Assembly: GCA_052168195.1 (NCBI GenBank)
Contig: JBQLZI010000001.1
Location: 1 to 46,708 of the forward strand
Length of the DNA: 46,708 bases
Direction of reading: 5' to 3'
DNA from: Phycisphaerales bacterium
GTDB lineage: Bacteria > Planctomycetota > Phycisphaerae > Phycisphaerales > UBA1924
In this document: one piece after another, positions 13,774-42,305 of the stretch
How positions within the stretch are numbered: position 1 is the first letter of the stretch
Layout of the letters: every line of letters begins with the position of its first letter
Position numbers and translations under genes: made by a program
The notes under the pieces: generated by a model
What the model was told of the DNA's origin: nothing
Seen by the model: the letters and a program-made list of their open reading frames with translations, nothing else
The model's database searches: none

Positions 13774-14090
13774 CGGAGTCCTCCTTTCGTGAGGGGTTGG
13801 TGGTCCTTCACCCGACAGGGGGACCACCAAGCACGAACAAGGAGGACGGAGAGACAGCGCGACGCGAGAGCGCACGAGCACCGCTCGATGCGCGGGGACG
13901 CAGCGCACACCGCCGGGGACGCTGGGGACGATCAAGCGGATGAGCTCAGGATGTCATGGGGACAATGGATGCCGTGGCCGGGGACGGCGTCGGAAGCGGA
14001 TTCAGGGCCCGTTCCGCGCCAAAACCGCGCCAGAATCGTCTGAGTATGTGGGTATGGATCTCTGGAAGCCGCGGATGGCTTGGGGTCTGA

Positions 14091-16995: not shown

Positions 16996-16997
16996 GC

Positions 16998-20500: not shown

Positions 20501-20845
20501 GACATCCCAGACGAGCTTGGCGGCCTCGGCGGGGTCGTCTGGGGCTTTGATGGCGGCGGCGAGCAGCATTGAGCGGAACACGCTGCTGCGCCGGCGCGCC
20601 CACCACTTGGACATCTGGTAGATGGGCTTGCCCGCGTTGCCCTCGATGGCCGCGATCTGGTTGATGGGGATGATCGGAAAGTCGACCTCAAGGCAGGTCA
20701 GCGGGCGGCTGGGGTCGGAGAAGTCGACGGTCTCCAGATCCCACGCCTTGCCCGCGTTCACGGCCTTGGCGACTTCCCGCGCGACCCACTCAGACTTGGT
20801 CAGACCTTCGTCCTTCCATGGCTGCTCTTTCGCCGTCGTGGCCAT
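17519..20845 (-). CDS. DUF1156-type DNA methyltransferase with Zn-ribbons (PglXI-like, N6-A/N4-C class)
   Basis: The internal ATG at 20845 lies 2 nt after the PglZ stop. YQMSKWWARRRSSVFRSMLLAAA is the DUF1156 hallmark. FMGGGTTVVEGSRLG is the AdoMet motif I and ITDPPFG is motif IV. There are several CxxC pairs (CKHCSG, CPHCGK, CAACGK, CPECK). Confidence 0.9.
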   Translation of the reverse strand: MATTAKEQPWKDEGLTKSEWVAREVAKAVNAGKAWDLETVDFSDPSRPLTCLEVDFPIIPINQIAAIEGNAGKPIYQMSKWWARRRSSVFRSMLLAAAIKAPDDPAEAAKLVWDVYYGNHQKKGTFRHLKVADIFMGGGTTVVEGSRLGMQMYGNDLNPVAWFVVKNELAQVDKAEVEKLLADIEADVKPQIMPFYACDCPRGHKGQWYKIGAGPKGDQLMGEDFDPLALTPEKRKHYRYEGPEVIYTFWAKHGPCQVTDCGHRTPIMSSPVMAVKTISIKAWKRTCKHCSGKYDLEEREARMAPGVELVVADTEKSYSIANLNMAGNPESATCPHCGKDERFGSLGKPVKKKIELSLLVHPDWLKGESSIDGDGHPYGGSADDPVEATVRWNQARAATCKLVEVRGTLPEEINVADGTIIKTGKEGGTVPGKSTFACAACGKADDIREAIAATQKNGPIAMYAVQGFCPECKVNDEAYNGRFFAPVRDTREYDASLQEWQDRKDADLVGFWPTSEVPFGFMTGMANGDIRKAHGFTHWWKMFNSRQLIIHATLLRELAARKDTAVVEFVLGAFQQYLRNQNLFCIWDTGYDKLVPHMSNNNYHPKATMVENCVFADLGRGNWQSQYSNMFAALDWTSDPWETVHNGSLGSSFPHLAEYVSGNSEKVLCHDPLTYNESLACLSSSERLTCGTSTELETIPDGSYDAVITDPPFGGLLHYSELADFFYVWLRLALKDRYPEYFEAEYTPKTMEAVANRARHPGDDPETGRSNADTFYQRLLTACWQEAKRILKPGGVLSFTFHHSEDAPWVSVLESLFDAGFYLQATYPIRSDETKGTGQFGSKMIEYDIIHVCRQRTEDPKPISWAKLRRQVLQDVRDLQVLLEHHQEDGLPEADLQVIRRGKALEHFSRHYGKVYKDQDTPMSVLEALLGVNQLLDEEAGGVREPPPHNAEPFTRMLLRLFDGKDELPRDQMQKFLRGTGSAPSDFESRGWVTEKKKVFYLVPPLEIAQGWVGKQRRGMTSDYDQAMFFIGACSENSGINVNDTLNNPNFRPHPALGAILMWFKTHGANSPTRNAAVTASQLYKAWEAKNQPKAKELTLFDALGEDD

Positions 20846-20847
20846 GA

Positions 20848-21849
20848 TCAAGCCCCGCCTTTCCTGCTGAGCTCGATGAATGGCACGGCTACTTCGAGGA
20901 CGCTGAGCCCGCCGTGTGTCAGAGTCGGGTAGCCGCCGGCGCTCTTCCATTTCCGGCGGCCGTTGACGAATAAGTGCGAGCCGTGGTCCGTGTTGAGTTG
21001 AAGATCGATAGGCGGAACCCACGGAGCGCGCTCTGCATTTGAACCGGTCCAACGCCCACTCTTGTATGTCTTCTTCATGTACTCGGAATGGTCATTCCCC
21101 GCATCAGGGAACAGTTCACTTGCGGCGTAACCGTGATCGGAAGTGATGACGAGGCGTCGACCGTGAGCGAGTCGATCCACTAGTGACCAGAAAGCCTCAC
21201 CTTGCAAGTGCTCCGCTGCCTTAGCAATCAGAGGGCGAAGACCTTCGCCAGCGTCAGCGAAATCATGGACATCCTTGTCGGGCCATTCATGCCACAGCAC
21301 CCAGTCGGGCTGGGAGCCGATCATGGCTGCGCAGTCGTCCCACGGCATGTTCGTGCATTCAGTGGATGCGCCTGGCAATCGGTGAGATGCACCCGCGCCA
21401 TTAGCGCCTAGTGAAGAGCGTTGCGCGAAACCCATGGCTTTGGCAAAAGGCGTCGTATCGGCAGGAAGCTCAGCCGCTGTTGGTCGCGCGGTGTGAACGA
21501 CTAGTCCGTGAGACTCTGCGCCGCTGAGCAGCCAAGGCACTTCTCGGAGAGAAAGAGCGTCAAGTATGAGCACGGCACGCCCCTGTCCACGGCTCTTCCA
21601 CCATGAAGCGAGCTCTTTGCTCGTGCGAGGGACGCACGACTCGTATTTGGCCCAGAGGTCCCAGCCCGCAGTGGCGAGGAACAGATCGAGATCGCCGACC
21701 TCACGATCACGTCGGACGATCTCTGATTCAGGTTTCGCGCCACCGAATGGTGCCGAGCATGTACTCCAGGCATACTGGAACGCGGCTGTCCATGCGTCGG
21801 GCGGCGAAGAATTCTGGAGTCGACGGAGGAGGTCGCCCGGAAGAGTCAT
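20848..21849 (-). CDS. pglZ: Short PglZ-domain (alkaline-phosphatase-fold) protein
   Basis: VLILDALSLREVPW, ELPADTTPFAKA, VITSDHGY and THGGLSVLEVAVPF match the PglZ core motifs. It is only 333 aa. ATGA overlap with the upstream gene. Confidence 0.78.
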   Translation of the reverse strand: MTLPGDLLRRLQNSSPPDAWTAAFQYAWSTCSAPFGGAKPESEIVRRDREVGDLDLFLATAGWDLWAKYESCVPRTSKELASWWKSRGQGRAVLILDALSLREVPWLLSGAESHGLVVHTARPTAAELPADTTPFAKAMGFAQRSSLGANGAGASHRLPGASTECTNMPWDDCAAMIGSQPDWVLWHEWPDKDVHDFADAGEGLRPLIAKAAEHLQGEAFWSLVDRLAHGRRLVITSDHGYAASELFPDAGNDHSEYMKKTYKSGRWTGSNAERAPWVPPIDLQLNTDHGSHLFVNGRRKWKSAGGYPTLTHGGLSVLEVAVPFIELSRKGGA

Positions 21850-24584: not shown

Positions 24585-24758
24585 TCGCCAACACCCCCCA
24601 TGTGTGGTTCTCCGCAGCCTCGGCCATCACTCGCGGCCGATCGCATCTTGCAGCACTTCCGACGAATTCCACTCATTACCCTATGTCCTAACGCTGTTCG
24701 AACTGTTGGTACACAAACGGATGGGAATAGTAAAGCTTGAATTGAACGCGACACTAGA

Positions 24759-25958
24759 TCACTCAACCTGCACCCGTCCAGATCTGGGTGGCTCTTCCCC
24801 CCGATCGTCGTAGACGCTTCCATCACTTGCAACCCATTTTCGGGGTGTTGGCTGGAGGGGAATAGCGAGATGGTAACGGCTGTGCTTCCGCTTGCCCTCG
24901 CGGGTGAGTGCGCCCTTCTCCACGAGGTCGGCGAGGTCGCGGGAGGCGGTGGCGGTCGACGCGCCGGTGATGCCGATGTACTTGCTCGCGGTGAGTCCGC
25001 CATCGAAGCCGCGCGGGCCCTCGCGGAGCATGCGGAGGACGGCCTTCTCCTGACGCTCGTTGAGTTGATCGCGGAGACGGTCGAGGAGTCGGGCTTTGTC
25101 GAGGGTGAACTCCACCAGTGCGTGCGTGCGGTGCTGGGCTTCAAGGGCGACCCCTGCGAACCACGCGAGCCAGCCGGTGACCTCGTTGCGTTTGTTGGAC
25201 GCTTCGAGGATGTCGTAGTACTCCCGCCGGCGGGCGAGGATGGTCCCGGCGAGGGCAAGGAGCGTGGATCGGCCGAGGGTCTGGGAGATCGCCTTCTCAC
25301 AGAGAGCGCGGGCGATGCGGCCGTTGCCGTCCTCGAAGGGATGGATGCAGACGAAGTGCTGGTGGACGAGCCCGGCCCGGGTCAGCGCGGGGAGGGGCGT
25401 CTTACCCCCCGGCGCGGTGCGGTTGAACCAGTCGATGAAGCGGTCCATCTCCGTGGGGACACGGTCCGAGGGTGGAGCCTCGAAGTGGACGGTCGGGTCG
25501 TGGACCTTTCCGGAGACGACCTGCATGGGCTCGGGCTGGGTGCGGTAGCGGCCCACATCATGAAGGTCGCGGCGCCCTTTCATGAGGAGCCGGTGCCACT
25601 CGAAGAGCACTTCGTGCGTCAGCGGCTCGGCGGCGGTGCGGTGGCTGGCGACGGTGACCGCGGCGACCCCTTCCTCGGCCGGTCGTGGGCGCGCGGTGTC
25701 AGCCCTCAGCCCGAGCTGGCGGCGGACAGAGGATTGCACGCTCTCGCGGTCGAGGAGCTCGCCCTCGATCTCGGAGGTGGTGAGCGCCTCGCTGGTGAAT
25801 GTCTCGACCCGGACGGCGTCGGCGTCGGCCTCGCCCAGGTGCTCAACCACCCCGAAGACGACCCCGGCCCCGAGCAGAAACGCCTGCTCGGCCTTGGCCA
25901 GACGCGCGGCGTCCCAGGTGAAATCGGGCCAATCGGGCTGTTCCCAGTTCCATTTCAT
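24759..25958 (-). CDS. Fic-family protein (AMPylase-type motif) with a C-terminal wHTH-like region
   Basis: Canonical HPFEDGNGRIAR motif. The N-terminal MKWNWEQPDWPDFTWD is typical of the DUF4172-Fic architecture. Confidence 0.9.
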   Translation of the reverse strand: MKWNWEQPDWPDFTWDAARLAKAEQAFLLGAGVVFGVVEHLGEADADAVRVETFTSEALTTSEIEGELLDRESVQSSVRRQLGLRADTARPRPAEEGVAAVTVASHRTAAEPLTHEVLFEWHRLLMKGRRDLHDVGRYRTQPEPMQVVSGKVHDPTVHFEAPPSDRVPTEMDRFIDWFNRTAPGGKTPLPALTRAGLVHQHFVCIHPFEDGNGRIARALCEKAISQTLGRSTLLALAGTILARRREYYDILEASNKRNEVTGWLAWFAGVALEAQHRTHALVEFTLDKARLLDRLRDQLNERQEKAVLRMLREGPRGFDGGLTASKYIGITGASTATASRDLADLVEKGALTREGKRKHSRYHLAIPLQPTPRKWVASDGSVYDDRGEEPPRSGRVQVE

Positions 25959-27828: not shown

Positions 27829-30800
27829 ATGCTTCGGATACACCAGTGCCGGAGCGCGGCGGCTGCGCAGTCGTATTTCACGCAGGGGCTCGCGCGAGAG
27901 GACTACTACACCGAGGGGCTCGAGATCACGGGCGCCTGGCAGGGCCGGGCCGCCGAGCGTCTCGGGCTCCTCAAGCACCACAACGGCGCCGTCGAGCGCG
28001 ACGCCTTCGCCGCGCTCACCGAGAACATCCACCCGCGCACCGGCGAACGGCTGACGCTCCGCACCCGCAACAACCGCACGATTGGATACGACATCAACTT
28101 CCACGCGCCCAAGGGCGTCTCGCTCCTCCACGCCGTGCACAAGGACGGTCGGATCGCCGAGGCGTTCCGCGCGTCGGTGCGCGAGACCATGCTGGAGATC
28201 GAGCGCCACGCCGAGACGCGGGTGCGCAAGAAGGGACAGGACGAGAACCGCCTCACCGGCAATCTCGTGTGGGCGGACTTCGTGCATCTTACCGCCCGGC
28301 CGACGGTCGCCGCCGACGGGCCCGATCCGCATCTCCACGCGCACTGTTTCGTCATGAACTGCACCTGGGACCGCGCGGAGGAATCGTGGAAGGCCGCGCA
28401 GTTCCGCGGCATCAACCGCGACGCGCCGTACTACGAGGCTGCGTTCCACGCGCGATTCGCCCGCCGGCTCGAAGGCCTGGGCTACGCGATCGAACGCACG
28501 CCCAAGGGCTGGGATCTCAAAGACGTTCCGCGCTCGCTGATCGACAAGTACTCGACCCGGACGGTCGAGATCGAAGCCTTCGCCGCCGAGAAGGGCATCA
28601 CCGACCCGAAGCAGAAGGGCGAGCTCGGGGCGCGCACGCGCAAGGCCAAGGACAAGACGCTCTCCGCCGCCGAACTCGCCCAGCGCTGGGAGAAGCGGCT
28701 CGACGACCGCGAACGTTCGCTCCTGCAATCAATCAATGATCGCGGCCATCCCCCGCCGCCGCCCTCGGAGACGCCGTCCGACCCGACCCCGTTCCTGCCC
28801 GGGGACGGCTCGCGCGAGCGCGCCGCGGCTAAAGAAGCCGTCGACCACGCGATCGCGCACTGCTTCGAGCGCAAGTCGGCGCTCCCCGAGGTCCGCCTGG
28901 TCGAGCAGGCCCTGCGCTTCGGCGTCGGACGCGTCGACACCGAGGACGTGTGGGCCGAGGTGCGGAGCCGCACGCTCCTCTCGCGTGAGATGAACGGCGA
29001 GAAGTTCGTGACGACGAACGAGGTCCTCGCTCAGGAGCGCGCCATGCTCGCCTTCGCGGTCGAAGGCAAGGGGACCTGCGCGCCGGCGCGCGAGCGCCTC
29101 ATGCGCCGCACGCCCGACTGGGAGCCGTCTTCGAAATCCCTCGCCGAGGATCAGCGCCGCGCCGTCGACCACGTGCTCGACTCGACCGATCGCGTGATCG
29201 CCATCCGCGGCGCGGCCGGAGTCGGCAAGACGACGATGACCCTCGAAGCCGTGGGCGCGCTGCGCGCCGCGGGGCTTCCTGTGACCGTGGTGGCCCCCAC
29301 CGCCGGCGCCTCGCGCGGGGCCGACGGCCTGCGCGGCAAGGGGCTTGCGACCGCGGACACCGTCGCGAAACTGCTCTCGGACCCGCAGATGCAGGCGGGG
29401 CTTAAGGGCGGCGTGCTCTGGGTCGACGAGGCCGGGCTCCTCGGCGTCGGGACCATGCTGCAACTCTCGCAACTGGCTGAACAGCACGATGCGCGCGTGG
29501 TGGTCTGCGGCGACGCGCGCCAGCACCGGCCGGTCGAAGCGGGCGACGCGCTGCGCGTGCTCGAATCCCACGGCGGGATCGCGCCGGTCGAGCTCACCAC
29601 CATCCGCCGCCAGCGCGGGATGTACAAGGAAGCCGTTGCGGCGATCGCCGACGGGAACCTCGACAAGGGCCTCGATCGGCTGGAGAAGCTCAACGCGTTT
29701 GTCGAGATCGACGATTCCGCCATGCGCGACCGCGCGGCGGCGCAGGACTACTTGACGGCGCTCGTGAACGGGAAGACGGCGATGATCGTCTCGCCGACGC
29801 ACGCCGAGGGCGAGCGCGTCGCCCGCGCCGTGCGCGAGGCCCAGCGCGAGAGCGGGATGCTCAGGGGCGAGGACCGGGATTTCGTGCGCCTGCGCGACCT
29901 GAATTGGAGCGAGGCCCAGCGCGCCGACCCGGCGATGTACGGCCGCGACGAGGGCGGGGACGCGCCGGCGCTCGTCGCCCACTTCCATCAGGGCGCGAAG
30001 GGCGTCGTCGCCGGGGACCGGTGCGAAATCTTGGGTACGCGTGCCCGGGAGGACGGAAGCCTCGCCGTGTTCGGACGCACGCCGCGCCGCGTCGAGGTCG
30101 AGCTGCCCGTCGAGCACGCCGACCGATTCCAGGTGTTCGCGCAGGAGAAGATCTCGCTCGCCGCCGGGGACCGGATCCGGATCACGCGCAACGGGCGCTT
30201 GGACAAGGGCCGCTCGCGCGTCACCAACGGCGACACCTGTGAGGTGAAGGGCTTCACTAAGGACGGGCACCTGAAGATCGAGCGCAATGGGCGGGAGCAG
30301 ACGGTCCCGCGGAACTACGGGCACATCGCCTACGGGAGCGTGAGCACGTCGCACGCGGCCCAGGGCAAGGACGTCGACCTCGCGATCCTGGTCCAGTCTT
30401 CGGCGTCGTTCGCGGCGGGGAGCGACGCGCAGTTCTACGTCTCGGTGAGCCGCGGCAAGCAGGGCCTCAGGATCTACACGGACGACATCGCCGAGCTCAA
30501 GGACGCCGTGCGCCGCAGCGCGGACCGCCCGGCCGCGGTGGAGGTCGCCGACGGCGCGACGCCGACGAATCGCGCGTTGAAGACGCACGATCGCAACGGC
30601 CGCGTTGAGAAAGCGCCCGAGCGATCAAACGCGAAGAAGCCCGAGTCGCCGAGCATCGAGACGATGCGCGACGCGGCGCGCCTGCACCGGCTGGGCAAGG
30701 AGGCTCGCGAGCGCTTGGAGCGTTTCCAGCGCGAGCAACCGCCGGCGCGCACGGGGCCGTCGACCGCGACGCCGGAGCGTTCCTCGCCGGGGCCGTCGAA

Positions 30801-30885
30801 GTCGCCGCCCAAGCCCGAGCACGCCAAGGATCAGAACCGCCGGCGCGACGAAGGCCGGGGAAGGGAGCGCGGCTATGAGCGATGA
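27829..30885 (+). CDS. MobF-family conjugative relaxase-helicase (TrwC/TraI-like)
   Basis: 1018 aa. The N-terminal relaxase region has AQSYF...EDYY tyrosines and the DPHLHAHCFVMN His triad. The helicase Walker A is GAAGVGKTT. TIRRQR and SVSRGKQ are RecD-like motifs. Confidence 0.92.
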   Translation: MLRIHQCRSAAAAQSYFTQGLAREDYYTEGLEITGAWQGRAAERLGLLKHHNGAVERDAFAALTENIHPRTGERLTLRTRNNRTIGYDINFHAPKGVSLLHAVHKDGRIAEAFRASVRETMLEIERHAETRVRKKGQDENRLTGNLVWADFVHLTARPTVAADGPDPHLHAHCFVMNCTWDRAEESWKAAQFRGINRDAPYYEAAFHARFARRLEGLGYAIERTPKGWDLKDVPRSLIDKYSTRTVEIEAFAAEKGITDPKQKGELGARTRKAKDKTLSAAELAQRWEKRLDDRERSLLQSINDRGHPPPPPSETPSDPTPFLPGDGSRERAAAKEAVDHAIAHCFERKSALPEVRLVEQALRFGVGRVDTEDVWAEVRSRTLLSREMNGEKFVTTNEVLAQERAMLAFAVEGKGTCAPARERLMRRTPDWEPSSKSLAEDQRRAVDHVLDSTDRVIAIRGAAGVGKTTMTLEAVGALRAAGLPVTVVAPTAGASRGADGLRGKGLATADTVAKLLSDPQMQAGLKGGVLWVDEAGLLGVGTMLQLSQLAEQHDARVVVCGDARQHRPVEAGDALRVLESHGGIAPVELTTIRRQRGMYKEAVAAIADGNLDKGLDRLEKLNAFVEIDDSAMRDRAAAQDYLTALVNGKTAMIVSPTHAEGERVARAVREAQRESGMLRGEDRDFVRLRDLNWSEAQRADPAMYGRDEGGDAPALVAHFHQGAKGVVAGDRCEILGTRAREDGSLAVFGRTPRRVEVELPVEHADRFQVFAQEKISLAAGDRIRITRNGRLDKGRSRVTNGDTCEVKGFTKDGHLKIERNGREQTVPRNYGHIAYGSVSTSHAAQGKDVDLAILVQSSASFAAGSDAQFYVSVSRGKQGLRIYTDDIAELKDAVRRSADRPAAVEVADGATPTNRALKTHDRNGRVEKAPERSNAKKPESPSIETMRDAARLHRLGKEARERLERFQREQPPARTGPSTATPERSSPGPSKSPPKPEHAKDQNRRRDEGRGRERGYER

Positions 30886-35091: not shown

Positions 35092-35781
35092 TCAAGCACG
35101 CTCGCCATCACCGCCAAATGGACTTGATTCCGAGGATGCAAGAAAGCTGTTAATGGTAAACAACAACAAGACAACTCCGCAAAGCGTTTCCACAGTTGCA
35201 AGTGTACGCGACAGAACATGACTTGCCGATATAGAGCTGCCGATCGTGGTATAGCGACCGACGCTGAAATATACAGCCGACACGGCATCCCATCCCCCCA
35301 CCGGGAGCCCTGCATACATCACACTATCCGGAACCCCTACAGCGACGGGAAGCAGGACCGCCAGCGTGGCGAACTGTGCCACTGGCTCTAAGTATGCAGC
35401 CGACGCCATCGCGAAAGTGCGATGGTTGGGCCGATACGCACGCACTGCCACACTGATATGCGCCGACATGATTGCCGACATCAGCTCAAGCATGCGCAAG
35501 CCAATGATAACCATTGTCACAATAGATAGCACTCGGCTCGTTGCGATTACAGATGATGCCACAAGTGCCACAAGACCGATGAAAAGCCAACCAAGTATAT
35601 AGCAATCGTGAAGCGTGTGGTAGTTGAGCCACGGATGCTTAATATCTCTACCGAACCGACAGAATATCCAGCGGTGAAACGATACGCATCGAGATGCAGC
35701 AATATAACATTTTATAACACAAACCAGCGGAAGGACGGGGTTGCACGCAGGCCGTCTCAGTTGACGCGCAGGTCTAGCCAT
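35092..35781 (-). CDS. Ion-channel-like membrane protein (pore-helix-like YFSVGRYTTIGSS segment)
   Basis: The ATG at 35781 is preceded by GGGAGGAAAG. It has several TM helices. The segment AVYFSVGRYTTIGSS followed by a TM helix resembles the pore loop of two-TM cation channels. Lower-GC region. Confidence 0.5.
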   Translation of the reverse strand: MARPARQLRRPACNPVLPLVCVIKCYIAASRCVSFHRWIFCRFGRDIKHPWLNYHTLHDCYILGWLFIGLVALVASSVIATSRVLSIVTMVIIGLRMLELMSAIMSAHISVAVRAYRPNHRTFAMASAAYLEPVAQFATLAVLLPVAVGVPDSVMYAGLPVGGWDAVSAVYFSVGRYTTIGSSISASHVLSRTLATVETLCGVVLLLFTINSFLASSESSPFGGDGERA

Positions 35782-36770
35782 CTTTCCTCCCGAGACATGC
35801 AAAACAAGCGTTGCCATTCAGCCAAATCAAGCCACGGGTCCGCAACTACGGCCACTGTACGAGAGCCTCGCAAAGTCGCAACCTTCACATCAACACAGCG
35901 GACTTGGAGGATATCACCTGGCAGAAAAGCCCCGCGGAACGCATTAGACATTACAATAACATCGTGAGGCGCCTCGTCTACCTGCAAGGCCGGCGTTGCA
36001 TAATAAGAAGCATCAACGCTCTCCACACGGACTCGCCTGGCATACGGCGAGTCACCACACTCCTCCCATGCTAAACAATTCTGAAGAGGATGCGATACAC
36101 ATGCGCGATCATCGATGCACGGAAAGAGGTCTGCAGTCCCCGCGGACGTGCCAAGCCGGAAGGGGAACAGATATCCTGCATCATGCCGGAAAATCCCAGG
36201 ATTCGACAGTCGATTCATGGCAATGCGTCTCCTGCATGCCGCAGCGTCCGAAGGCCTCATTGATATAGCAATGTCGATATCTGCTGCCTGCGACGGATAT
36301 GTCAAATAGAGTCGACTGCCAATTAAGTACGTATCGTCCCGGCATTTACTTCCGATTGCCCAATCGCACGCGTCTTTAATAGGCGACTCGCCATCGCTCC
36401 ACGGATTCGCGTTTTGTAGCCTTATAGGCTGCCAAGACTCTATCACCGACGACGCCGCCGCGCAACATAGCCCGTGCAGACGAAGGAATTGACACCGAAT
36501 GCCCAGATCGCCCACCATTTCTCTAATTTCTCGCTCGGTTCGGTGAACCAACTCGCCGCCTACTTGTCGAGTTTTGATATCAATCATCAAGTGTCCATTG
36601 ATTTCGCGAGCCCCTTGCTCCCGCTCACGCACCGACTCCAGCAATGGCTTGACCCAGATACCACCAGGCATGGGGGGCATAAGATCGCTCCACTCTTCGA
36701 CAGCAAGAATTACGCCACGAGCGCTAGATTCGAGCAAATGGTATTGCGGGAGCATGTGTTGTACTTTCAT
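35757..36770 (-). CDS. Hypothetical protein with a possible Pol-beta-type nucleotidyltransferase motif
   Basis: 337 aa. IGSRLYLTYPSQAADIDIAI fits hG[GS]-x11-DxD. An acidic cluster (TADLFPCIDD) lies about 60 aa downstream. Confidence 0.5.
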   Translation of the reverse strand: MKVQHMLPQYHLLESSARGVILAVEEWSDLMPPMPGGIWVKPLLESVREREQGAREINGHLMIDIKTRQVGGELVHRTEREIREMVGDLGIRCQFLRLHGLCCAAASSVIESWQPIRLQNANPWSDGESPIKDACDWAIGSKCRDDTYLIGSRLYLTYPSQAADIDIAISMRPSDAAACRRRIAMNRLSNPGIFRHDAGYLFPFRLGTSAGTADLFPCIDDRACVSHPLQNCLAWEECGDSPYARRVRVESVDASYYATPALQVDEAPHDVIVMSNAFRGAFLPGDILQVRCVDVKVATLRGSRTVAVVADPWLDLAEWQRLFCMSREERWLDLRVN

Positions 36771-37908
36771 TGCTGACGATTAATGATCGCCACTTGAGAA
36801 ATGAGACAAACCGGACTTGCTCATCGTTCTCATTAAGCAAATTCGCGTAGAAGCACTTCGGATCCAGAACAGTCACCTTAGCACGGGACCATAATAATGC
36901 CTCCAGCCCGAGCAAACTGTTCCAAGTTACGAGTGACTTGGTCGATCTAATGGCTGCACTTGGATTTGATCTATCCACTTCAATAGTGCGGCCCCGCACG
37001 GCGATTGACGACGACCTTGGACTTTCTGGACTCAGAGGGTGAGGACGAAACACCACTCGCTTGTCAGCAAGATGCGGTAGGCGCCCAAAGACATAATCAA
37101 CGAAACCAAGACTGCCAGCAAATGGCGCTCTGCGTAGATTGTAATCGAAGCCGCATTGTCCAACGATGAGGCAGTCGATGCGATCCGGATCGGCCGAAGC
37201 TGCCGACACGGGTTCTTTCTCACAATATTTATCCCAGTACGACCCTTGCGCCGGTCGCGGCGAAGGGGCAGTCTCGATCATTCTGGCCTGAAACATACTC
37301 CAGTCGGCTCGAAATGAGCTACCCGAGGCGGTGAACGGCACTTCGAAATCTACGATATACGAATCTGGCAGTAGGCCGCGCTCAATGACATACAGCTTTC
37401 TACCATACTCACTTGCTACTGCGGCGGCGACATTCATATGCCAATGCCCTCGACCATACACCGCTACCGCAGCGTCCCGGTGCTCCTGAAGAAATACCGA
37501 CATTCTTTGTCGGAACTCACCTGAGGCAAGCAAAATAACTTGTTCGTACTCGAGATTATCTCCAACTGTAAAATTGTAACCTGCATGGTGGAGCGTACGA
37601 AACTCGTCGTCAAGCCACTGCCACGTTGGCCAAGGATCTGAATGACCCCAGTACTGCCTTACTAGTTCCAGATGCGAGCCCAAAAGCGGGGGCCGAAAAC
37701 TGGCTATAGTTGATTGACGGTTCTCAACACAGGGCAGGCAGTTCGGATGCGGGACAATCGAATATGAAAATATTGTCGCGTTTGGAAACAACGACGCAAA
37801 TGAATCCTGTTGGGTCAGAAACGTAGGCAAGACAGCGAGTACTTCGGCTTCGCGCCAAGCGCTTTGTAATACAGCGGGTAGATCGACTTCAGATTTGCTG
37901 TACTTCAT
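36724..37908 (-). CDS. Capsule-polysaccharide-biosynthesis-like (KpsS/KpsC-type) glycosyltransferase
   Basis: Internal ATG at 37908. VIERGLLPDSYIVD, IVGQCGFDYN, VVFRPHP and LVTWNSLLGLEALLWSRAKVTVL resemble the Capsule_synth family pattern from memory. Confidence 0.5.
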   Translation of the reverse strand: MKYSKSEVDLPAVLQSAWREAEVLAVLPTFLTQQDSFASLFPNATIFSYSIVPHPNCLPCVENRQSTIASFRPPLLGSHLELVRQYWGHSDPWPTWQWLDDEFRTLHHAGYNFTVGDNLEYEQVILLASGEFRQRMSVFLQEHRDAAVAVYGRGHWHMNVAAAVASEYGRKLYVIERGLLPDSYIVDFEVPFTASGSSFRADWSMFQARMIETAPSPRPAQGSYWDKYCEKEPVSAASADPDRIDCLIVGQCGFDYNLRRAPFAGSLGFVDYVFGRLPHLADKRVVFRPHPLSPESPRSSSIAVRGRTIEVDRSNPSAAIRSTKSLVTWNSLLGLEALLWSRAKVTVLDPKCFYANLLNENDEQVRFVSFLKWRSLIVSNESTTHAPAIPFARI

Positions 37909-38121
37909 GGCTCCCCACTTTAACCATTTGGTCAGAGGGTTGCAAACCAAGCCAGAGTCCCGTACTGGCAGCGAGGCTAAACTTGCTACACCCAAGCGTG
38001 ATGCAGCAACTGCCAGAAGGACATGTGGTGCCGTGATAATGCACGGTCACGCGACCTATGCGACAGAGCATCCCACCGAACATGTACGAATACTGGATTC
38101 TACAGCCCGAGCTCAGTGATC

Positions 38122-38326: not shown

Positions 38327-38695
38327 TCAACCGTGTACAACCATTGCACCGGCCTGTTCAGTACACCACTCGATCTCACCACCCCGGACAAAAAAGTGAC
38401 TGCGGCAACCCTTACGGCGCCAGACTGACGGATGCAGCGTCACTAGGCCGTCGGCACGTTCCTTAACAGTCCACCGCGGCCTTGATTCTGGGAGCAGGTT
38501 CATATGGATCGTGTCTCTGCAACCGCACGGGCAGAGCATCGCGGCGGCCCAGGGGTGCCCGTGATCTCCAGCTACGTACACACGATGGTCTCGGAGCCGA
38601 TCGGGAAAGTCCTCGACGCGCTCGACCTTGTACAGCTTCGACCGCCAAGGCCAGAGACGCTGGAGCCACCGTCCGATGATGGAGCGCCACTTCAC
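38327..38695 (-). CDS. DUF6527-like small Cys-rich (putative Zn-binding) protein
   Basis: 122 aa. GTG start overlapping the E1 stop (GTGA). The cluster CPCGC...H...C..H...C is present. Proteins of this kind are annotated as DUF6527 next to E1/E2/multiubiquitin genes, as I recall. Confidence 0.7.
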   Translation of the reverse strand: MKWRSIIGRWLQRLWPWRSKLYKVERVEDFPDRLRDHRVYVAGDHGHPWAAAMLCPCGCRDTIHMNLLPESRPRWTVKERADGLVTLHPSVWRRKGCRSHFFVRGGEIEWCTEQAGAMVVHG

Positions 38696-40095
38696 GCGGC
38701 CACCCCATTTTCTGATAGGGAAGGCATGTCCAGCAGCGGCGAGACATCACCACGACCGACGAGCCTTGAGAACGAGTGCGGTCTATCGGCGGGCTCCGGC
38801 TCGTAGTATGTATGCATCTGCACGAGACTATGGCGGATGATCGCGTACTCGCTGTTGTTCTCCAGCCGAAACGGGTGAAGCCGGGCGAGGAGTTCATTGA
38901 CGAGCATCGACGCGAGCTGGGTGTTGACGGAGACTACCGCCGGCTTGGCCTCATCAACGCCCTCGATGTATTTGGATTTGCGGAGGTCTTCGTAGGCCGC
39001 TGGGTCAGTGCGTTTCGTGGCTTCAGCACGGAGCCGTTCGGGCGTGTACACGCCCCGATCCAAGAGAGAAGCGCCGTCGGGCTGCACATAGTGCACCGCT
39101 CCGCACACCTCCTGAATCGCGCCACGGCCATCCGCGACGAGCTTCACCCCGACATCCAAGAAGGGCAGGTTGTAGAACGCGGCGGTCCGGTTCGCGACAT
39201 GCCGACCCTCGACGCTGTCGACGCACCCGATCAGGATGTCCGTCCCGGCCAGTGCACGAACCGCCTCGGGCGAGTCCGCGATGTTTCCCGCGTAGGTCTC
39301 GACAGCGGTGCCGATCCCCATCGAGCGGATGGCACGTGCCATGGCCTCGACCTTGAGCGTCTTCCGTGCGGCGTCCTCCGCGGTCGTGTTCGGGATGCGT
39401 GGCAGGTTCTCATCGCCGACGTGGTCCGGATCGATGAGCACCAGCCGCCCCACACCAAGGCGAGCAAGTTGCTCGATGACCGGTCCACCGGTGCCGGAAC
39501 ACCCGATGACGCCGACGGACAGCCGACCGAGCAGCGACATCGTCGCCTCTCCGAACAGCCTGACCTGACGGTCGAACGTCGGGTCGGAGACGAAGCTCTC
39601 TCCATCACCGTCGAAGAACAAGATGTCGTTCCCGGCGACGGCGATGCGCCGGAGCCGCTCGAAGCGGCCATCGGGGTGGATCGCTCGGCCGAACATAGGC
39701 CCGCCCGGGAGCATCACGACGCTGGCGTGCGCGTCGACGCCGTCGGTCCACCCGTGCACCGACCCGAAGAGATCCGCGTCCGCCTTGTCGTCCTTCTCGG
39801 AGAACCGTGCGAAGCCGCCGGGGTGGCAATGGAACTTGACCACGGCATGGTCGCGCTCGATGGCTCGCACGAGGAGCTCTTCGAGCCGGCTCGTTGACCA
39901 AGTGACATCGATGTCGGTGCGTCGGCACTCGTCGTACGGGATGTGCACGATGTCTTGGAGCGTAAGGACATGCCCGTGGTCGCCTCGGTGGCGACCACAG
40001 ACTCCCACCGCGACGGCTTCGAGTCCGTCGCCCGGGTACAGGTGATTCATAAGGGCCGCGTGCTGATTGCCCGTCATTCTCATTGAAGTAGTCAT
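38692..40095 (-). CDS. JAB/JAMM metalloprotease fused to a ThiF/E1-like adenylyltransferase
   Basis: HCHPGGFARFSEKD equals HxH-x7-S-xx-D, an intact JAMM motif, preceded by an E (GLEAVAV). VGVIGCSGTGGPVIEQLARLGVGRLVLIDPD is the ThiF Rossmann motif. Confidence 0.88.
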   Translation of the reverse strand: MTTSMRMTGNQHAALMNHLYPGDGLEAVAVGVCGRHRGDHGHVLTLQDIVHIPYDECRRTDIDVTWSTSRLEELLVRAIERDHAVVKFHCHPGGFARFSEKDDKADADLFGSVHGWTDGVDAHASVVMLPGGPMFGRAIHPDGRFERLRRIAVAGNDILFFDGDGESFVSDPTFDRQVRLFGEATMSLLGRLSVGVIGCSGTGGPVIEQLARLGVGRLVLIDPDHVGDENLPRIPNTTAEDAARKTLKVEAMARAIRSMGIGTAVETYAGNIADSPEAVRALAGTDILIGCVDSVEGRHVANRTAAFYNLPFLDVGVKLVADGRGAIQEVCGAVHYVQPDGASLLDRGVYTPERLRAEATKRTDPAAYEDLRKSKYIEGVDEAKPAVVSVNTQLASMLVNELLARLHPFRLENNSEYAIIRHSLVQMHTYYEPEPADRPHSFSRLVGRGDVSPLLDMPSLSENGVAA

Positions 40096-40502
40096 CAGTT
40101 CAAACTCCCGATCTCTCGCGCAAGTAGCGCGTCAGCAAGAACAACCTGGGTGGAGATGTCGTCTTCTCCGACCCTCCATGGATTCGCGGATGTGCGATGC
40201 CGGGACCACCGCTGGAAGGGCTCGCCCCGGATCGACTGGTTCTTGAGCGCGTTGATCGCCTTGCCGTCCCGGCGCGCCAGAGCCGGCTTGACGTAGAACA
40301 TGTCGAGCGGCGCATCGGGGTACCCCGGAGGGATCATCAGCGCGAGCGCGACTTGGTCGTGCGTATAGCCCTTGGGGACGGCATGGTCGTGGAGGATGAC
40401 CCAGCGGGTCTTCCCTTCAACAACCGTCTCCCAACGGTCGGAATGCGCGTCCAGAAACTCTCGGTCGGGCTCAGGCAGTTCAAATTCGCGTCGTAGCTGC
40501 AT
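40095..40502 (-). CDS. Prokaryotic E2/UBC-like protein (E2_E-type), containing no cysteine
   Basis: 135 aa. LALMIPPGYPDAPLDMFYVKP is a UBC-fold-like core. Start and stop overlap both neighbours. The sequence contains zero Cys. Confidence 0.72.
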   Translation of the reverse strand: MQLRREFELPEPDREFLDAHSDRWETVVEGKTRWVILHDHAVPKGYTHDQVALALMIPPGYPDAPLDMFYVKPALARRDGKAINALKNQSIRGEPFQRWSRHRTSANPWRVGEDDISTQVVLADALLAREIGSLN

Positions 40503-40818
40503 TGTCGCTCCCCTCCGTGGGATCGAGCGGGAGCGTCATGAAGCGCTCCACGCCCGGCTTGGTCAGGTCCACCTTGTCGCCGGGGCCGATCTTGCGAACC
40601 TCGCCGCCGCGCAGCTTCTGCGACAGCATGAACTCGCTCGGCGACTTGTCGACGAGGGCGAGGATCTGCGCGCCGGTGATGCACGGCTCGTCGACCACGA
40701 AACGCTCGCGGTCGATGCGGATGCGGTAGCGGTGCCCGGGCGGCACAGGGCGTCCCGCTTTGGCAAACTCTTCGATGTCGATAGTCTCGGTCACGGTCTG
40801 GCCGTTCGTCTGACTCAT
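40480..40818 (-). CDS. Multiubiquitin-domain (Ubl) protein
   Basis: The ATG at 40818 is preceded by AGGAGAAGG. YRIRIDRERFVVDEPCITGAQILALVDK...KIGPGDKVDLTKPGVERFMTLP matches the multiubiquitin beta-grasp pattern from memory. Confidence 0.7.
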   Translation of the reverse strand: MSQTNGQTVTETIDIEEFAKAGRPVPPGHRYRIRIDRERFVVDEPCITGAQILALVDKSPSEFMLSQKLRGGEVRKIGPGDKVDLTKPGVERFMTLPLDPTEGSDNAATTRI

Positions 40819-40873
40819 GGCCTTCTCCTTGCTGTTGAATCTCAACTCAACGGTGGGGGTAAAAAAAACAGGT

Positions 40874-41590
40874 TCAGAACAGGCGCGCTTGGCCTGTGGC
40901 GTAGTCACGGTGCTCGAAGAGCTGCTTGCCCTTCACGTACAGCAGGTCGAGTTGTTGGAGACGCACGACCATCGCCGAGATGGTCACGCCGAACTTGTCC
41001 TTGAGGTCGTAGAGCGCTGGCCAACTGGTGCGGTCGATCTTCTTGACCTCCTCAAGCACTAGGTTCTTGGGCATCGAGATCGCGGCGGCGTAGCGATTGA
41101 CGACGCGGGCTTCGTCCGGCTCATCCGCGCGCTGATCGATCTCCTTCAGCAGCGCCCGCCCTTCGGCGGACTCCTCCAGCTTCTTAATGACGGCAACGTC
41201 GCCGACACCCGAACTCCGGAACGCGAACGGCCCGTCGCCGTTCTCGTCAAAAAGCGCGGGGTGGCCGAATGTCGCCTTGTCTACGTACAGGTCCCAGTGG
41301 CCCATCTCGTGGCCCTTGGTCGAACGCTCAAGCCCGGGATGCTTGTCCATGTACTCGCGGCGGGCTTCGTTCAGGATGATGAGCTTCTTCTGCGGCATGA
41401 TGGCGCCGAGGATCAGTTCGCCGGGGAGTTCCTGCACCGTGTCCCAGAGGAAGTCGAGCCCGAGCACGACCTCGCCGAGGTAGTCGATCTGGATCGGAAG
41501 GGTAAGCGGCTTGCCCATCGCACGCTCCATCTCCAGCAGCCGGGTTTCGGCCAGTACCTCTATGTCTGCGTTGCGATAGAACCGTTTCAT
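40874..41590 (-). CDS. ImmA/IrrE-family zinc metallopeptidase
   Basis: HEMGHWDLY is an HEXXH motif. The ATG at 41590 overlaps the XRE stop (ATGA). NRYAAAISMP is a downstream family motif. Confidence 0.85.
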   Translation of the reverse strand: MKRFYRNADIEVLAETRLLEMERAMGKPLTLPIQIDYLGEVVLGLDFLWDTVQELPGELILGAIMPQKKLIILNEARREYMDKHPGLERSTKGHEMGHWDLYVDKATFGHPALFDENGDGPFAFRSSGVGDVAVIKKLEESAEGRALLKEIDQRADEPDEARVVNRYAAAISMPKNLVLEEVKKIDRTSWPALYDLKDKFGVTISAMVVRLQQLDLLYVKGKQLFEHRDYATGQARLF

Positions 41591-41967
41591 TCGTCGGTGA
41601 TCCTTCTCAGTTTGTCGATGAGCTTGTCCCACTGCTCGGGCGTGAGGTTGCGGTCGACCGCCGACCGGTAGAAGACGCGGGCCTTCTCATTCTGGAGTTG
41701 CTCGCTGACATCGGACGGCGCTTTGCCAGCGAGGGCGAGGAGCTCGTCGCTGTCCGCATCGAGCACCAGTGCAAGAACGAGAATGGCCTGCTGAGATGGC
41801 GGCGGCATCCTCTCGTTCTCGATCTTACTGAGATAGGTGAAGTCGAACCCACGACCGTCCTGCTCCTTCAACTTCGCCGCGACCTTGTCGGCGAGCTCTC
41901 GCTGGGACAGGTGCTTGCCGAGCCTGAGCTCCTTCAGCCGCGTCCCGAATGTCTTTTCCCGTGGCAT
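41587..41967 (-). CDS. XRE-family HTH transcriptional regulator
   Basis: FGTRLKELRLGKHLSQRELADKV...YLSKIENERMPP is a classic HTH_3 motif. Confidence 0.85.
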   Translation of the reverse strand: MPREKTFGTRLKELRLGKHLSQRELADKVAAKLKEQDGRGFDFTYLSKIENERMPPPSQQAILVLALVLDADSDELLALAGKAPSDVSEQLQNEKARVFYRSAVDRNLTPEQWDKLIDKLRRITDE

Positions 41968-42258
41968 TCGCTCCTACTGTACCGCCGTTGAGTTGAGAGT
42001 CAACGCTATGAAGTCAAGAACTTTCCCCCCTCTGCGAGTGCGGACACGGCGCGGGGCCTGGCGGACAGCAAGTGAAACATTCACCACCGGATTCTGCGAC
42101 CCCGAATCCGGTGCTCGCTCATTGCGTCCTCCGTTGCGTCCTGACCAGGGCCCAAGACGCAATGGGCTGGCCCCCCACTCACCCGGGCGATCCGTCTTCT
42201 TGACCCTCTGAAGGCGGTTTCTGAGTGTCTGAGGGCCGGTTTTGTTCGGTATCTTTTC

Positions 42259-42305
<47 letters not shown>

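What the first reader, a model, noticed from the sequence alone, without database searches (positions are those of the whole stretch)
38327..41967. Six-gene XRE / ImmA / multiubiquitin / E2 / JAB-E1 / DUF6527-like operon: a ubiquitin-like conjugation system with an unusual architecture
All six genes lie on the minus strand and are tightly coupled. XRE and ImmA share an ATGA overlap. A strong RBS precedes the Ubl gene. The Ubl and E2 genes overlap by 23 nt. E2 and JAB-E1 share TGATG. JAB-E1 and the Cys-rich protein share GTGA. Seen directly: an intact JAMM motif (HCHPGGFARFSEKD) fused N-terminally to a ThiF Rossmann domain (GCSGTGG), a UBC-like protein, a beta-grasp multiubiquitin-like protein, and a small CPCGC/C..H/C protein. 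Established knowledge: comparative genomics by the Aravind group predicted bacterial Ubl/E2/E1/JAB operons, and related sets (CBASS Cap2/Cap3, Bil, and the more recent Bub pathways) have been tied to anti-phage defence. To my knowledge, this particular combination has no experimentally defined function or target. That combination is a JAB fused to E1, an E2_E-type protein, a Zn-ribbon-like DUF6527 partner, and an XRE/ImmA sensor-regulator pair in the same transcription unit. It also sits at the extreme end of a mobile island.
Basis: partly seen in the sequence, partly recalled or inferred. Interest (0 to 1): 0.85.

Follow-up and report, generated by a model that had tools for sequence, protein, structure and literature searches.

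The report
Type I Bub ubiquitin-like operon
The six genes are real and intact, but they form an already named and biochemically studied bacterial ubiquitin-like tagging system (a Type I "Bub" operon with its usual CapH/CapP-type switch), so this is a new example of a known kind whose cellular purpose is still unknown.

Summary
All six minus-strand genes, their overlaps and the quoted motifs are present as described. Pfam matches every core protein above its curated cut-off. The E1 and E2 match the solved Citrobacter BubCD (E 1e-76) and BubB (E 2e-28) structures. Every published catalytic residue is conserved: a cysteine-free E2 with Asp67/Ser100/His102, E1 Tyr376 and Arg233, an intact JAMM site, and BubE with a C4 zinc site plus Ser90/His100.

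This is therefore a Type I Bub (formerly 6E.1/DUF6527) operon. [quoted passage not shown] 2024 preprint; NSMB 2026). The XRE/ImmA pair is CapH/CapP-like, and 31% of Bub operons carry such a pair. The paper's Table S1 already lists operons with this gene set, with Ubl and E2 as separate genes.

The architecture is therefore not new. The biological role and targets remain unknown in the literature.

Small additions from this work:
- The Ubl carries a 9-residue tail after its reactive Gly103.
- An 18-bp operator-like element occurs twice, and its positions are conserved across loci.
- The operon lies about 290 bp inside attR of a 36.7-kb element integrated at tRNA-Asp, which also carries Hma-like and SoFic-like genes.

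Verdict: new member of a known kind, low to moderate interest.

The parts
41976..42004 (-). Candidate capH promoter with operator-like element O1 (GTTGACTCTCAACTCAAC, 41987-42004). The -35 hexamer TTGACT lies inside the element. A 16-nt spacer leads to the -10 hexamer TACAGT (ends at 41976), 8 nt before the capH ATG, which suggests a leaderless or near-leaderless mRNA.
   Evidence: Promoter scan. The 18-mer is found twice in the window against 0 expected by chance. The identical 18-mer lies upstream of capH homologues in L002 and L006. It also lies beside capH/capP homologues of 52-67% identity in 9 of 26 metagenome hits.
41587..41967 (-). capH-like HTH (XRE-type) repressor, 126 aa.
   Evidence: Pfam HTH_31 8e-7. 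PADLOC capH 8.8e-5, covering residues 4-124. A 126-aa HTH gene in the same position is found in L002 and L006.
40874..41590 (-). capP-like ImmA/IrrE-family zinc metallopeptidase, 238 aa. HEMGH at residues 94-98. No cysteine, so no cysteine switch. Its start overlaps the capH stop (ATGA).
   Evidence: PADLOC capP 1.7e-9. The AF2 model (pLDDT 76) best matches Thauera CapP 7t5t (E 1.9e-4), then PprI/IrrE. H94, E95, H98 and E160 are invariant in 23 homologues.
40834..40868 (-). capP-bubA intergenic cassette: a T8 run (40861-40868) followed by a second, inverted copy of the operator-like element, O2 (40834-40851, 1 mismatch). O2 ends 3 nt before the bubA ribosome-binding site.
   Evidence: The same layout (T-run, about 9-10 nt, then GTTGnGTTGAnnnTCAAC) lies between the peptidase gene and the cargo in L002, L003, L005 and L006 (Bub cargo). 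It is also present in L007-L009, which carry unrelated cargo.
40480..40818 (-). bubA: ubiquitin-like protein, 112 aa, with a single beta-grasp domain. The reactive Gly103 codon is at 40510-40512. It is followed by a 9-residue tail, SDNAATTRI (40483-40509), that must be removed before adenylation.
   Evidence: Pfam Multi_ubiq 3e-17. The AF2 model (pLDDT 80.5) has a disordered tail. The best fold match is Citrobacter BubA(155-229), 9ea8_B, TM 0.83, rmsd 1.9 A. The C-terminal motif ERFMTLPLDxTEG is conserved and G103 is invariant in the 34-sequence alignment.
40095..40502 (-). bubB: E2-like protein, 135 aa, with no cysteine. Predicted catalytic Ser100 (40203-40205), with His102 and Asp67. Overlaps bubA by 23 nt in the +1 frame.
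   Evidence: Pfam Prok-E2_E 4e-36. PDB Citrobacter BubB 9eae_C, E 2e-28, with QRWSRHR and LDMFY aligned. Residue positions. Of the 47 closest homologues, 46 are stand-alone proteins of 119-142 aa.
38692..40095 (-). bubCD: fusion of a JAB/JAMM peptidase and an E1 adenylation domain, 467 aa.
- JAMM residues: Glu26, His89, His91, Ser99, Asp102.
- Adenylation residue: Arg233.
- Crossover-loop Tyr376 (38968-38970).
   Evidence: Pfam ThiF 9e-27 and Prok-JAB 3e-6. PDB Citrobacter BubCD 9ea4, E 1e-76, over residues 7-462. Residue mapping. Cys331 aligns to Thr in Citrobacter, so there is no conserved catalytic cysteine.
38327..38695 (-). bubE: DUF6527/PF20137 protein, 122 aa, with a GTG start that overlaps the bubCD stop. 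It has a Trp/Leu-rich N-terminal extension, a C4 zinc site (Cys55, Cys57, Cys59, Cys97) and a Ser90/His100 dyad.
   Evidence: Pfam DUF6527 4e-24. Residue positions have the same spacing as Citrobacter BubE C57/C59/C61/S92/C99/H102. The L002 homologue conserves them.
42259..42305 (+). attR: an exact 47-nt direct repeat of 5553-5599 (the last 45 nt of tRNA-Asp plus 2 nt beyond it). It marks the end of the integrated element that carries the operon.
   Evidence: tRNA-Asp at 5523-5597. K-mer repeat search. Integrase at 5542-6921. TrwC relaxase at 27829-30885.

Best explanation
The locus is a Type I Bub (bacterial ubiquitination-like; formerly 6E.1/DUF6527) operon, with a co-directional CapH/CapP-like regulatory pair in front of it. 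It is carried as cargo at the attR end of an integrative mobilisable or conjugative element inserted in tRNA-Asp.

Proposed mechanism. Only the presence and conservation of the parts is shown here. The steps themselves are inferred by homology to the Citrobacter system.
1. The HTH repressor binds the 18-bp element that overlaps the -35 of its own promoter. It probably also binds the inverted copy just upstream of bubA. This keeps the operon off.
2. A stress signal activates the ImmA/IrrE-type metallopeptidase, which cleaves the repressor and de-represses the operon. For canonical CapP the signal is single-stranded DNA from DNA damage or infection.
3. BubA is made with a 9-residue tail. The JAB domain of BubCD removes the tail to expose Gly103.
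4. The E1 domain adenylates Gly103 and forms a BubA~Tyr376 oxyester. BubA then passes to Ser100 of the cysteine-free E2 BubB, assisted by His102 and Asp67, and from there to lysines of unknown targets.
5. BubE, a Ser90/His100 protease with a C4 zinc site, removes BubA from targets. This restrains the pathway, possibly at the membrane through its hydrophobic N-terminus.

The likely role is a stress- or infection-induced defence function that benefits the mobile element. No phenotype has been shown for any Bub operon.
For: Domain content:
- All core proteins match Pfam above the curated cut-offs.

Homology to solved Bub proteins:
- BubCD matches at 1e-76 and BubB at 2e-28 by sequence.
- The Ubl model matches Citrobacter BubA(155-229) by fold, TM 0.83.

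Catalytic residues:
- Every residue that Ye et al. validated by mutation is conserved. These are JAB E28/D104, E1 R227/Y370, E2 S333/H335 (D299 is reported only as invariant) and BubE S92/H102 with its four cysteines.
- The E2 has no cysteine at all.

Operon conservation:
- The same six-gene operon is found in L002, L006 and L019 at about 50-70% identity.
- Table S1 of Ye et al. lists operons with this architecture.

Regulators:
- PADLOC capH and capP hits.
- Fold match to Thauera CapP.
- The same pair sits in front of unrelated cargo.

Operator-like element:
- The 18-bp element occurs twice against 0 expected by chance.
- It keeps both positions across loci.
- It is identical next to capH homologues of only 52-67% identity.

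Context:
- tRNA-Asp direct repeats, integrase, relaxase, an Hma-like system and a SoFic-like gene. This matches the published observation that Bub operons sit in elements inserted at tRNA genes.
Against: - Nothing here is experimental. All activity is inferred by homology at about 40-50% identity.
- The main text of the paper defines Type I Bub by a Ubl-E2 fusion. Here the two are separate, overlapping genes.
- The CapP-like protein is divergent. It has no Pfam or PDB sequence hit and no cysteine. At 238 aa it seems too short for the full GAF domain of Thauera CapP. Single-stranded DNA sensing is therefore uncertain.
- I found no recognisable promoter next to O2, and the conserved T-run is not part of a conserved terminator hairpin. 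How O2 acts is unknown.
- The authors report that no Bub operon has protected E. coli from phage.
Confidence: 0.85

Rival explanations
1. One reading: this is a new ubiquitin-like conjugation system whose architecture is distinct from Bub, Bil and CBASS.
For: [quoted passage not shown] Here the two are separate genes. PADLOC 2.0 has no model that recognises the Ubl, E2 or DUF6527 proteins.
Against: Table S1 of the same paper lists about 30 Type I Bub operons with separate Ubl and E2 genes, many with CapP and CapH. The proteins match the solved Citrobacter Bub proteins strongly and share all catalytic residues.
Confidence: 0.03
2. The separate Ubl and E2 ORFs result from a recent frameshift or a sequencing error in an ancestral bubAB fusion gene, or they are rejoined by programmed frameshifting.
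For: The two ORFs overlap by 23 nt in different frames, exactly where Citrobacter BubAB is cleaved. The apparent Shine-Dalgarno sequence GGAGGGG lies within the conserved Thr-Glu-Gly codons (ACG GAG GGG), so it is not independent evidence of a separate start.
Against: Of the 47 closest E2 homologues, 46 are stand-alone, and all 120 listed Ubl homologues are stand-alone. The overlap is conserved at 17-23 nt in L002-L005 despite 65-71% identity. In relatives the tail after the Gly ranges from 0 to 9 residues, and many end exactly at the Gly. No frameshift signal is conserved or needed.
Confidence: 0.03
3. The system does not conjugate proteins. Either it is an inactive relic, because the E1 and E2 lack catalytic cysteines, or it is a ThiF/ThiS-like adenylation and sulfur-transfer pathway.
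For: There is no cysteine in the E2 and no conserved catalytic cysteine in the E1. The E1 domain gives sub-threshold hits to ThiF/MoeB models. Earlier comparative genomics predicted that 6E E2s are inactive (cited).
Against: Ye et al. showed ATP-dependent conjugation by the homologous Citrobacter and E. coli systems through Tyr and Ser oxyesters. It was abolished by Y370F and by S333A/H335A. The equivalent residues are all conserved here. No sulfur-transfer or thiamine/molybdopterin genes are adjacent. NCBIfam scores are far below the equivalog cut-offs.
Confidence: 0.04
4. The identity is the same (Type I Bub), but the role is not anti-phage defence. Instead it is a general DNA-damage or stress response, or a function that serves the mobile element itself, such as modifying host or element proteins during induction or transfer.
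For: No Bub operon has been shown to protect against phage. The regulators belong to a family that responds to DNA damage. The operon lies within an element that carries a relaxase and an integrase. The authors themselves raise stress-response roles.
Against: Bub operons co-occur with defence genes. This element carries Hma-like and SoFic-like genes. CapH/CapP, CapW and CapK/CapS mostly control known defence systems. The related Bil and Type II CBASS systems are anti-phage.
Confidence: 0.35

Closest known systems
Type I Bub operon (6E.1/DUF6527). Reference system: Citrobacter sp. RHBSTW-00271 BubAB/BubCD/BubE. Ye et al., bioRxiv 10.1101/2024.11.21.623953; Nat Struct Mol Biol 2026.
   Same: - JAB-E1 fusion with the same JAMM residues, the adenylation Arg and the crossover-loop Tyr.
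- Cysteine-free E2 with Ser/His/Asp.
- Beta-grasp Ubl that ends in a conserved Gly.
- BubE with a C4 zinc site and a Ser/His dyad.
- Location in an element inserted at a tRNA gene.
- Frequent association with CapH+CapP.
   Different: - Ubl and E2 are separate, overlapping genes rather than one BubAB polypeptide. This subclass is listed in the paper's Table S1 but not discussed in its text.
- The Ubl has one beta-grasp domain, against three in Citrobacter.
- JAB processing would remove a 9-residue tail rather than release the E2.
- The host is probably a Phycisphaerales planctomycete. The closest genome locus is a Phycisphaerales MAG.
CapH+CapP regulators of CBASS and other defence operons (Lau et al. 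2022, bioRxiv 10.1101/2022.04.27.489752; Calloji et al. 2026).
   Same: An HTH repressor paired with an ImmA/IrrE-type HExxH metallopeptidase, placed directly in front of the cargo. The best structural match of the peptidase model is Thauera CapP. The module is found with varied cargo.
   Different: - It is co-directional with the cargo and translationally coupled. In most CBASS cases the pair is divergent.
- It has no cysteine-switch loop. Only about a third of CapPs have one.
- At 238 aa it has no evident full GAF domain.
- It has a roughly 55-residue, low-confidence insertion after HEMGH.
- Sequence similarity to characterised CapP is very low.
Type II Bub operon (6E.2).
   Same: The Ubl, BubE and the oxyester chemistry belong to the same families.
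   Different: Type II has an E2-E1 fusion (BubBD), usually no JAB domain, and a Ser/Lys/His E2 site. This locus has a JAB-E1 fusion and a Ser/His/Asp site.
Bil (bacterial ISG15-like) systems and Type II CBASS Cap2/Cap3.
   Same: Bacterial E1/E2/JAB-type conjugation machinery linked to mobile or defence loci.
   Different: Bil and CBASS use catalytic cysteines. [quoted passage not shown] CBASS has an E2-E1 fusion (Cap2) that acts on a CD-NTase. None of these features is present here, and neither system has a DUF6527 protein.

Membership tests
Type I Bub (6E.1/DUF6527) operon | A BubE protein (PF20137/DUF6527) with a C4 zinc site and a Ser/His dyad. | tested here: met
   Pfam DUF6527 4e-24. C55/C57/C59/C97 and S90/H100 have the same spacing as Citrobacter C57/C59/C61/C99 and S92/H102.
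Type I Bub (6E.1/DUF6527) operon | A JAB/JAMM peptidase fused N-terminally to a single E1 adenylation domain (BubCD), with a crossover-loop Tyr and no catalytic Cys. | tested here: met
   PDB 9ea4 BubCD, E 1e-76, over residues 7-462. E26, H89, H91, S99, D102, R233 and Y376 align to the published residues. C331 aligns to Thr.
Type I Bub (6E.1/DUF6527) operon | An E2 (Prok-E2_E) with Ser+His+Asp in place of the catalytic Cys. | tested here: met
   Pfam 4e-36. PDB 9eae_C BubB, 2e-28. D67/S100/H102 are present and the protein has no cysteine.
Type I Bub (6E.1/DUF6527) operon | A beta-grasp Ubl (Multi_ubiq) with a conserved reactive C-terminal Gly. | tested here: met
   Pfam 3e-17. Fold match to BubA 9ea8_B, TM 0.83. 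G103 is invariant in 34 homologues.
Type I Bub (6E.1/DUF6527) operon | Ubl encoded as a fusion to the E2 (BubAB), as the paper's main text states. | tested here: not met
   The two are separate ORFs that overlap by 23 nt. However, the paper's own Table S1 classifies about 30 operons with separate Ubl and E2 as Type I Bub. The authors therefore do not apply this feature as defining.
Type I Bub (6E.1/DUF6527) operon | ATP-dependent Ubl conjugation through Tyr and Ser oxyester intermediates. | not testable with these tools
   Requires biochemistry. Only residue conservation could be checked.
CapH+CapP regulatory pair | An HTH repressor with a C-terminal oligomerisation region, encoded next to the peptidase. 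| tested here: inconclusive
   Pfam HTH_31. PADLOC capH 8.8e-5, nearly full length. No significant PDB sequence hit. Oligomerisation was not tested.
CapH+CapP regulatory pair | A zinc metallopeptidase of the ImmA/IrrE (M78) fold with HExxH plus a distal Glu. | tested here: met
   HEMGH at 94-98 and E160 are invariant. PADLOC capP 1.7e-9. Top fold hits are 7t5t CapP and PprI/IrrE, although TM is only about 0.45-0.48.
CapH+CapP regulatory pair | A cysteine-switch loop and a C-terminal GAF domain, as in Thauera CapP. | tested here: not met
   The protein has no cysteine. It is 238 aa, and after the helical region the model has only a short beta-hairpin. The cysteine switch is present in only 33% of CBASS CapPs, so it is not strictly defining.
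CapH+CapP regulatory pair | The repressor binds the cargo promoter and is cleaved by the peptidase on a single-stranded DNA signal. | not testable with these tools
   Only a candidate operator was found: an 18-bp element in two copies, conserved across loci.
Bil (bacterial ISG15-like) system | [quoted passage not shown] | tested here: not met
   The JAB domain is fused to a single-adenylation-domain E1. The E2 has no cysteine.
Type II CBASS (Cap2/Cap3) | A CD-NTase together with an E2-E1 fusion (Cap2) and a JAB protein (Cap3). | tested here: not met
   No CD-NTase or effector is among the six operon genes or the nearby island ORFs that were scanned. PADLOC E1-E2 hits cover only the adenylation core, residues about 180-305.

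The most novel reading that the evidence does not exclude
The split-gene, single-beta-grasp Type I Bub subclass, gated by this unusually conserved short CapP-like peptidase and a two-operator cassette, may be a portable stress-induced module that works differently from the Citrobacter model. The peptidase has no cysteine switch and no full GAF domain. For example, it might sense a signal other than single-stranded DNA. The Ubl might also be directed at proteins of incoming or resident mobile elements, such as relaxase or conjugation proteins or phage proteins, which would give the first biological role for any Bub pathway.
Probability: 0.12. Interest if true: 0.6.

Novelty: new member of a known kind. 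Interest (0 to 1): 0.25.

Why it matters
Bub pathways are of real current interest. They are the only ubiquitin-like conjugation systems known to work without catalytic cysteines, and their cellular targets and role are still unknown. This locus adds nothing fundamentally new to that picture. It is a clean, intact example from a probable planctomycete host, on a well-delimited element at tRNA-Asp, of a subclass already listed in the published catalogue.

Its practical value is modest:
- It documents that the split Ubl/E2 arrangement is the rule among its close relatives. It also shows that the Ubl then often keeps a short removable tail. That offers a rationale for keeping the JAB domain in operons with tailed Ubls, although many relatives end exactly at the Gly.
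- It points to a candidate operator and promoter for this CapH/CapP subfamily that could be tested directly.

Tried and rejected
- **Frameshift or pseudogene origin of the Ubl/E2 split.** Rejected, because homologues are almost all stand-alone and the overlap is conserved.
- **Programmed +1 frameshifting.** Rejected, because tail length ranges from 0 to 9 residues and many Ubls end exactly at the Gly.
- **Intrinsic terminator between capP and bubA.** The conserved T-run is not preceded by a conserved hairpin. Only L006 has one, and z-scores elsewhere are not significant. The terminator scan found nothing on that strand.
- **A sigma-70-like promoter at O2, in either direction.** Manual reading of seven loci found no conserved -10 hexamer. 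How O2 acts remains unresolved.
- **Sequence search of the CapP-like and CapH-like proteins against the PDB.** This gave nothing useful. Only the fold search linked the peptidase to CapP and IrrE.
- **The genome-contig scan with BubCD.** It returned only one locus, a Phycisphaerales MAG cut at a contig end. Neighbourhoods therefore came from metagenome contigs.
- **The published NSMB version (PMC12885553).** It is not held in the library, so statements about the paper rest on the preprint and on the EMBO J 2026 citation.
- **NCBIfam.** It has no Bub-specific models. Its only hits are sub-threshold ThiF/MoeB matches.

Full report
**1. The observation**

The six ORFs exist on the minus strand at the stated coordinates:
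- XRE: 41587-41967.
- ImmA-like: 40874-41590.
- Ubl: 40480-40818.
- E2: 40095-40502.
- JAB-E1: 38692-40095.
- DUF6527: 38327-38695.

- XRE and ImmA overlap as ATGA.
- AAGGAGAAGG precedes the Ubl ATG.
- Ubl and E2 overlap by 23 nt, in different frames.
- E2 and E1 meet as TGATG.
- E1 and DUF6527 meet as GTGA.

Pfam matches HTH_31, Multi_ubiq, Prok-E2_E, ThiF plus Prok-JAB, and DUF6527, all above the curated cut-offs. The ImmA-like protein has no Pfam hit, but it carries HEMGH and hits the PADLOC capP model at 1.7e-9. The XRE protein hits capH at 8.8e-5.

**2. What it is**

Homology to solved Bub proteins:
- The E1 fusion matches the solved Citrobacter BubCD structure at E = 1e-76 over almost its full length.
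- The E2 matches Citrobacter BubB at 2e-28.
- An AlphaFold model of the Ubl has pLDDT 80.5, a single beta-grasp and a disordered C-terminal tail. Its best PDB match is Citrobacter BubA(155-229), TM 0.83, rmsd 1.9 A.

These proteins come from Ye et al. (bioRxiv 10.1101/2024.11.21.623953; published in Nat Struct Mol Biol 2026). That paper renamed the '6E/DUF6527' operons as Bub. It showed that they conjugate the Ubl through a Ubl~Tyr oxyester on the E1 and a Ubl~Ser oxyester on the E2. It also showed that DUF6527 (BubE) is a Ser/His protease with a C4 zinc site.

Every functionally validated residue is conserved here:
- JAMM site: Glu26, His89, His91, Ser99 and Asp102.
- E1: adenylation Arg233 and crossover-loop Tyr376.
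- E2: Asp67, Ser100 and His102, in a protein with no cysteine at all.
- BubE: Cys55, Cys57, Cys59 and Cys97, plus Ser90 and His100. The spacing is identical to Citrobacter, with numbering offset by two.

The JAB-E1 fusion and the Ser/His/Asp E2 site mark it as Type I rather than Type II.

**3. The one apparent departure**

[quoted passage not shown] Here the two are separate genes. This is not an artefact:
- Of the 47 closest E2 homologues, 46 are stand-alone.
- All 120 listed Ubl homologues are stand-alone.
- The overlapping arrangement recurs in L002-L005 at 65-71% identity.

It is not new either. Table S1 of the same paper lists about 30 Type I operons with separate Ubl and E2. Many also have CapP and CapH, in divergent or co-directional order.

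The Ubl C-terminus ERFMTLPLDxTEG is highly conserved. In relatives it is followed by 0 to 9 unconserved residues. Here it is followed by nine (SDNAATTRI), which overlap the E2 start in another frame. By analogy with BubCD cutting BubAB after Gly229, I infer that the JAB domain trims this tail to expose Gly103.

**4. Regulators**

The 238-aa peptidase belongs to a large and very conserved family. There are 382 hits, at 55-95% identity, whose few named sources include Planctomycetota, Armatimonadota and Bryobacteraceae MAGs. The family is always paired with an HTH gene of roughly 126-148 aa. It sits in front of Bub operons (L002, L006, L019) or in front of unrelated, unannotated cargo (L007-L009). 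That is the behaviour expected of a portable CapH/CapP-type switch.

The peptidase model (pLDDT 76) best matches Thauera CapP, then PprI/IrrE. However, the protein has no cysteine switch and seems too short for a full GAF domain. Single-stranded DNA sensing is therefore only an inference.

An 18-bp element, GTTGACTCTCAACTCAAC, occurs twice in the window. One copy overlaps the -35 of a promoter-like site just upstream of capH. The other is inverted, between capP and bubA. Zero copies are expected by chance. Both positions are conserved in other loci, whatever the cargo.

An exact-match scan of metagenome contigs found 26 hits. Nine of them lie directly beside capH/capP homologues that are only 52-67% identical at the protein level. 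This argues for selection on the DNA itself. It is the likely operator.

The -10 hexamer sits 6-9 nt before the capH start codon in several loci, which suggests a leaderless transcript. A conserved T-run upstream of the second copy is not part of a conserved terminator and remains unexplained.

**5. Context**

The last 45 nt of tRNA-Asp (gene 5523-5597) plus 2 nt beyond it, 5553-5599, are repeated exactly at 42259-42305. The repeats delimit an element of about 36.7 kb that carries:
- an integrase (5542-6921) and a second integrase;
- a TrwC relaxase;
- an ArdC-like protein;
- an Hma-like helicase and methylase pair;
- a SoFic-like protein;
- a low-GC block of unknown genes.

The Bub operon is the last cargo before attR. 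It also matches the published note that the studied Bub operons sit in elements inserted at tRNA genes. The closest genomic relative found is a Phycisphaerales MAG.

**6. Mechanism, rivals and novelty**

The best explanation (confidence about 0.85 for identity, lower for each inferred step) has five steps:
- CapH-like repression through the 18-bp sites.
- Relief of repression by the CapP-like peptidase under stress.
- Trimming of the BubA tail by the JAB domain.
- Adenylation, then transfer through Tyr376 and Ser100 oxyesters to unknown lysine targets.
- Reversal by BubE.

Rivals:
- A truly new system is unlikely.
- A frameshifted fusion is unlikely.
- An inactive or sulfur-transfer pathway is unlikely.
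- The real open question is the biological role. As of 2026, no Bub operon has been shown to protect against phage.

The finding is a new member of a known kind. It is interesting as an example but not surprising to a specialist, hence an interest score of about 0.25.

Noticed in passing
window 5523-5599 and 42259-42305: tRNA-Asp lies at 5523-5597. A 47-nt stretch (5553-5599: its last 45 nt plus 2 nt beyond) is repeated exactly at 42259-42305. The repeats delimit an integrated element of about 36.7 kb, with a tyrosine integrase (5542-6921, minus strand) next to the tRNA and a TrwC relaxase at 27829-30885.
   Followed up: yes
window 14239-25958: The same element carries an Hma-like defence cluster and a SoFic-like gene.
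- SNF2 helicase, 14239-17001: PADLOC HmaA 5e-97 and BrxH 1e-99.
- DUF1156/N6_N4 methylase, 17519-21052: HmaB 8e-37.
- AAA_16/NACHT-like protein of 912 aa, 21846-24584.
- SoFic-like Fic/DUF4172 protein, 24759-25958: 1e-41.
   Followed up: partly
window 41976-42004 and 40834-40868; L002, L005-L009, L019-L024: The 18-bp element GTTGACTCTCAACTCAAC occurs at the capH promoter and, inverted, between capP and the cargo. It is conserved across loci with different cargo. The -10 hexamer lies 6-9 nt before the capH start, which suggests a leaderless mRNA. A conserved T7-8 run about 9-10 nt upstream of the second copy has no explanation: it is not a conserved terminator, and no promoter was found.
   Followed up: partly
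L007 5800-9365; L008 5797-9356; L009 5807-9596: The same highly conserved HTH and 239-aa peptidase cassette precedes a different, unannotated cargo. This cargo consists of proteins of about 392 aa, 453-492 aa and 251 aa with no Pfam hits, followed in L007 and L009 by a PDDEXK_1 gene. It occurs in an Armatimonadota genome (L007), in a contig whose peptidase is labelled Bryobacteraceae (L008) and in an unassigned contig (L009). It may be an uncharacterised stress- or defence-induced system.
   Followed up: no
window 35092-37995: A low-GC block (about 52-54%, against 62-70% in the flanks) lies directly downstream of bubE. It has three minus-strand ORFs: one of 241 aa with a weak Ion_trans_2 match, one of 337 aa with no hit, and one of 423 aa with a weak Capsule_synth match. 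It is not conserved next to Bub operons in other loci.
   Followed up: partly
window 10065-10814 and 12940-13935: The element carries two more M78/ImmA-type peptidase genes. One is fused to an ArdC-N anti-restriction domain (12940-13935). There is also a second integrase at 11754-12932.
   Followed up: no
literature: Ye et al. preprint, main text versus Table S1: [quoted passage not shown] Table S1 lists about 30 Type I operons with separate Ubl and E2 genes. Close relatives of this locus are almost all of the split type, with Ubl tails of 0-9 residues after the reactive Gly.
   Followed up: yes
L004 5682-7811: A related Bub operon (E2 64% identical) has no co-directional capH/capP. Instead it has a divergent Peptidase_M78 gene, a 122-aa gene and a sigma-70-like gene. 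No bubE gene was called downstream of the E1, leaving an uncalled gap at 7811-9020.
   Followed up: no
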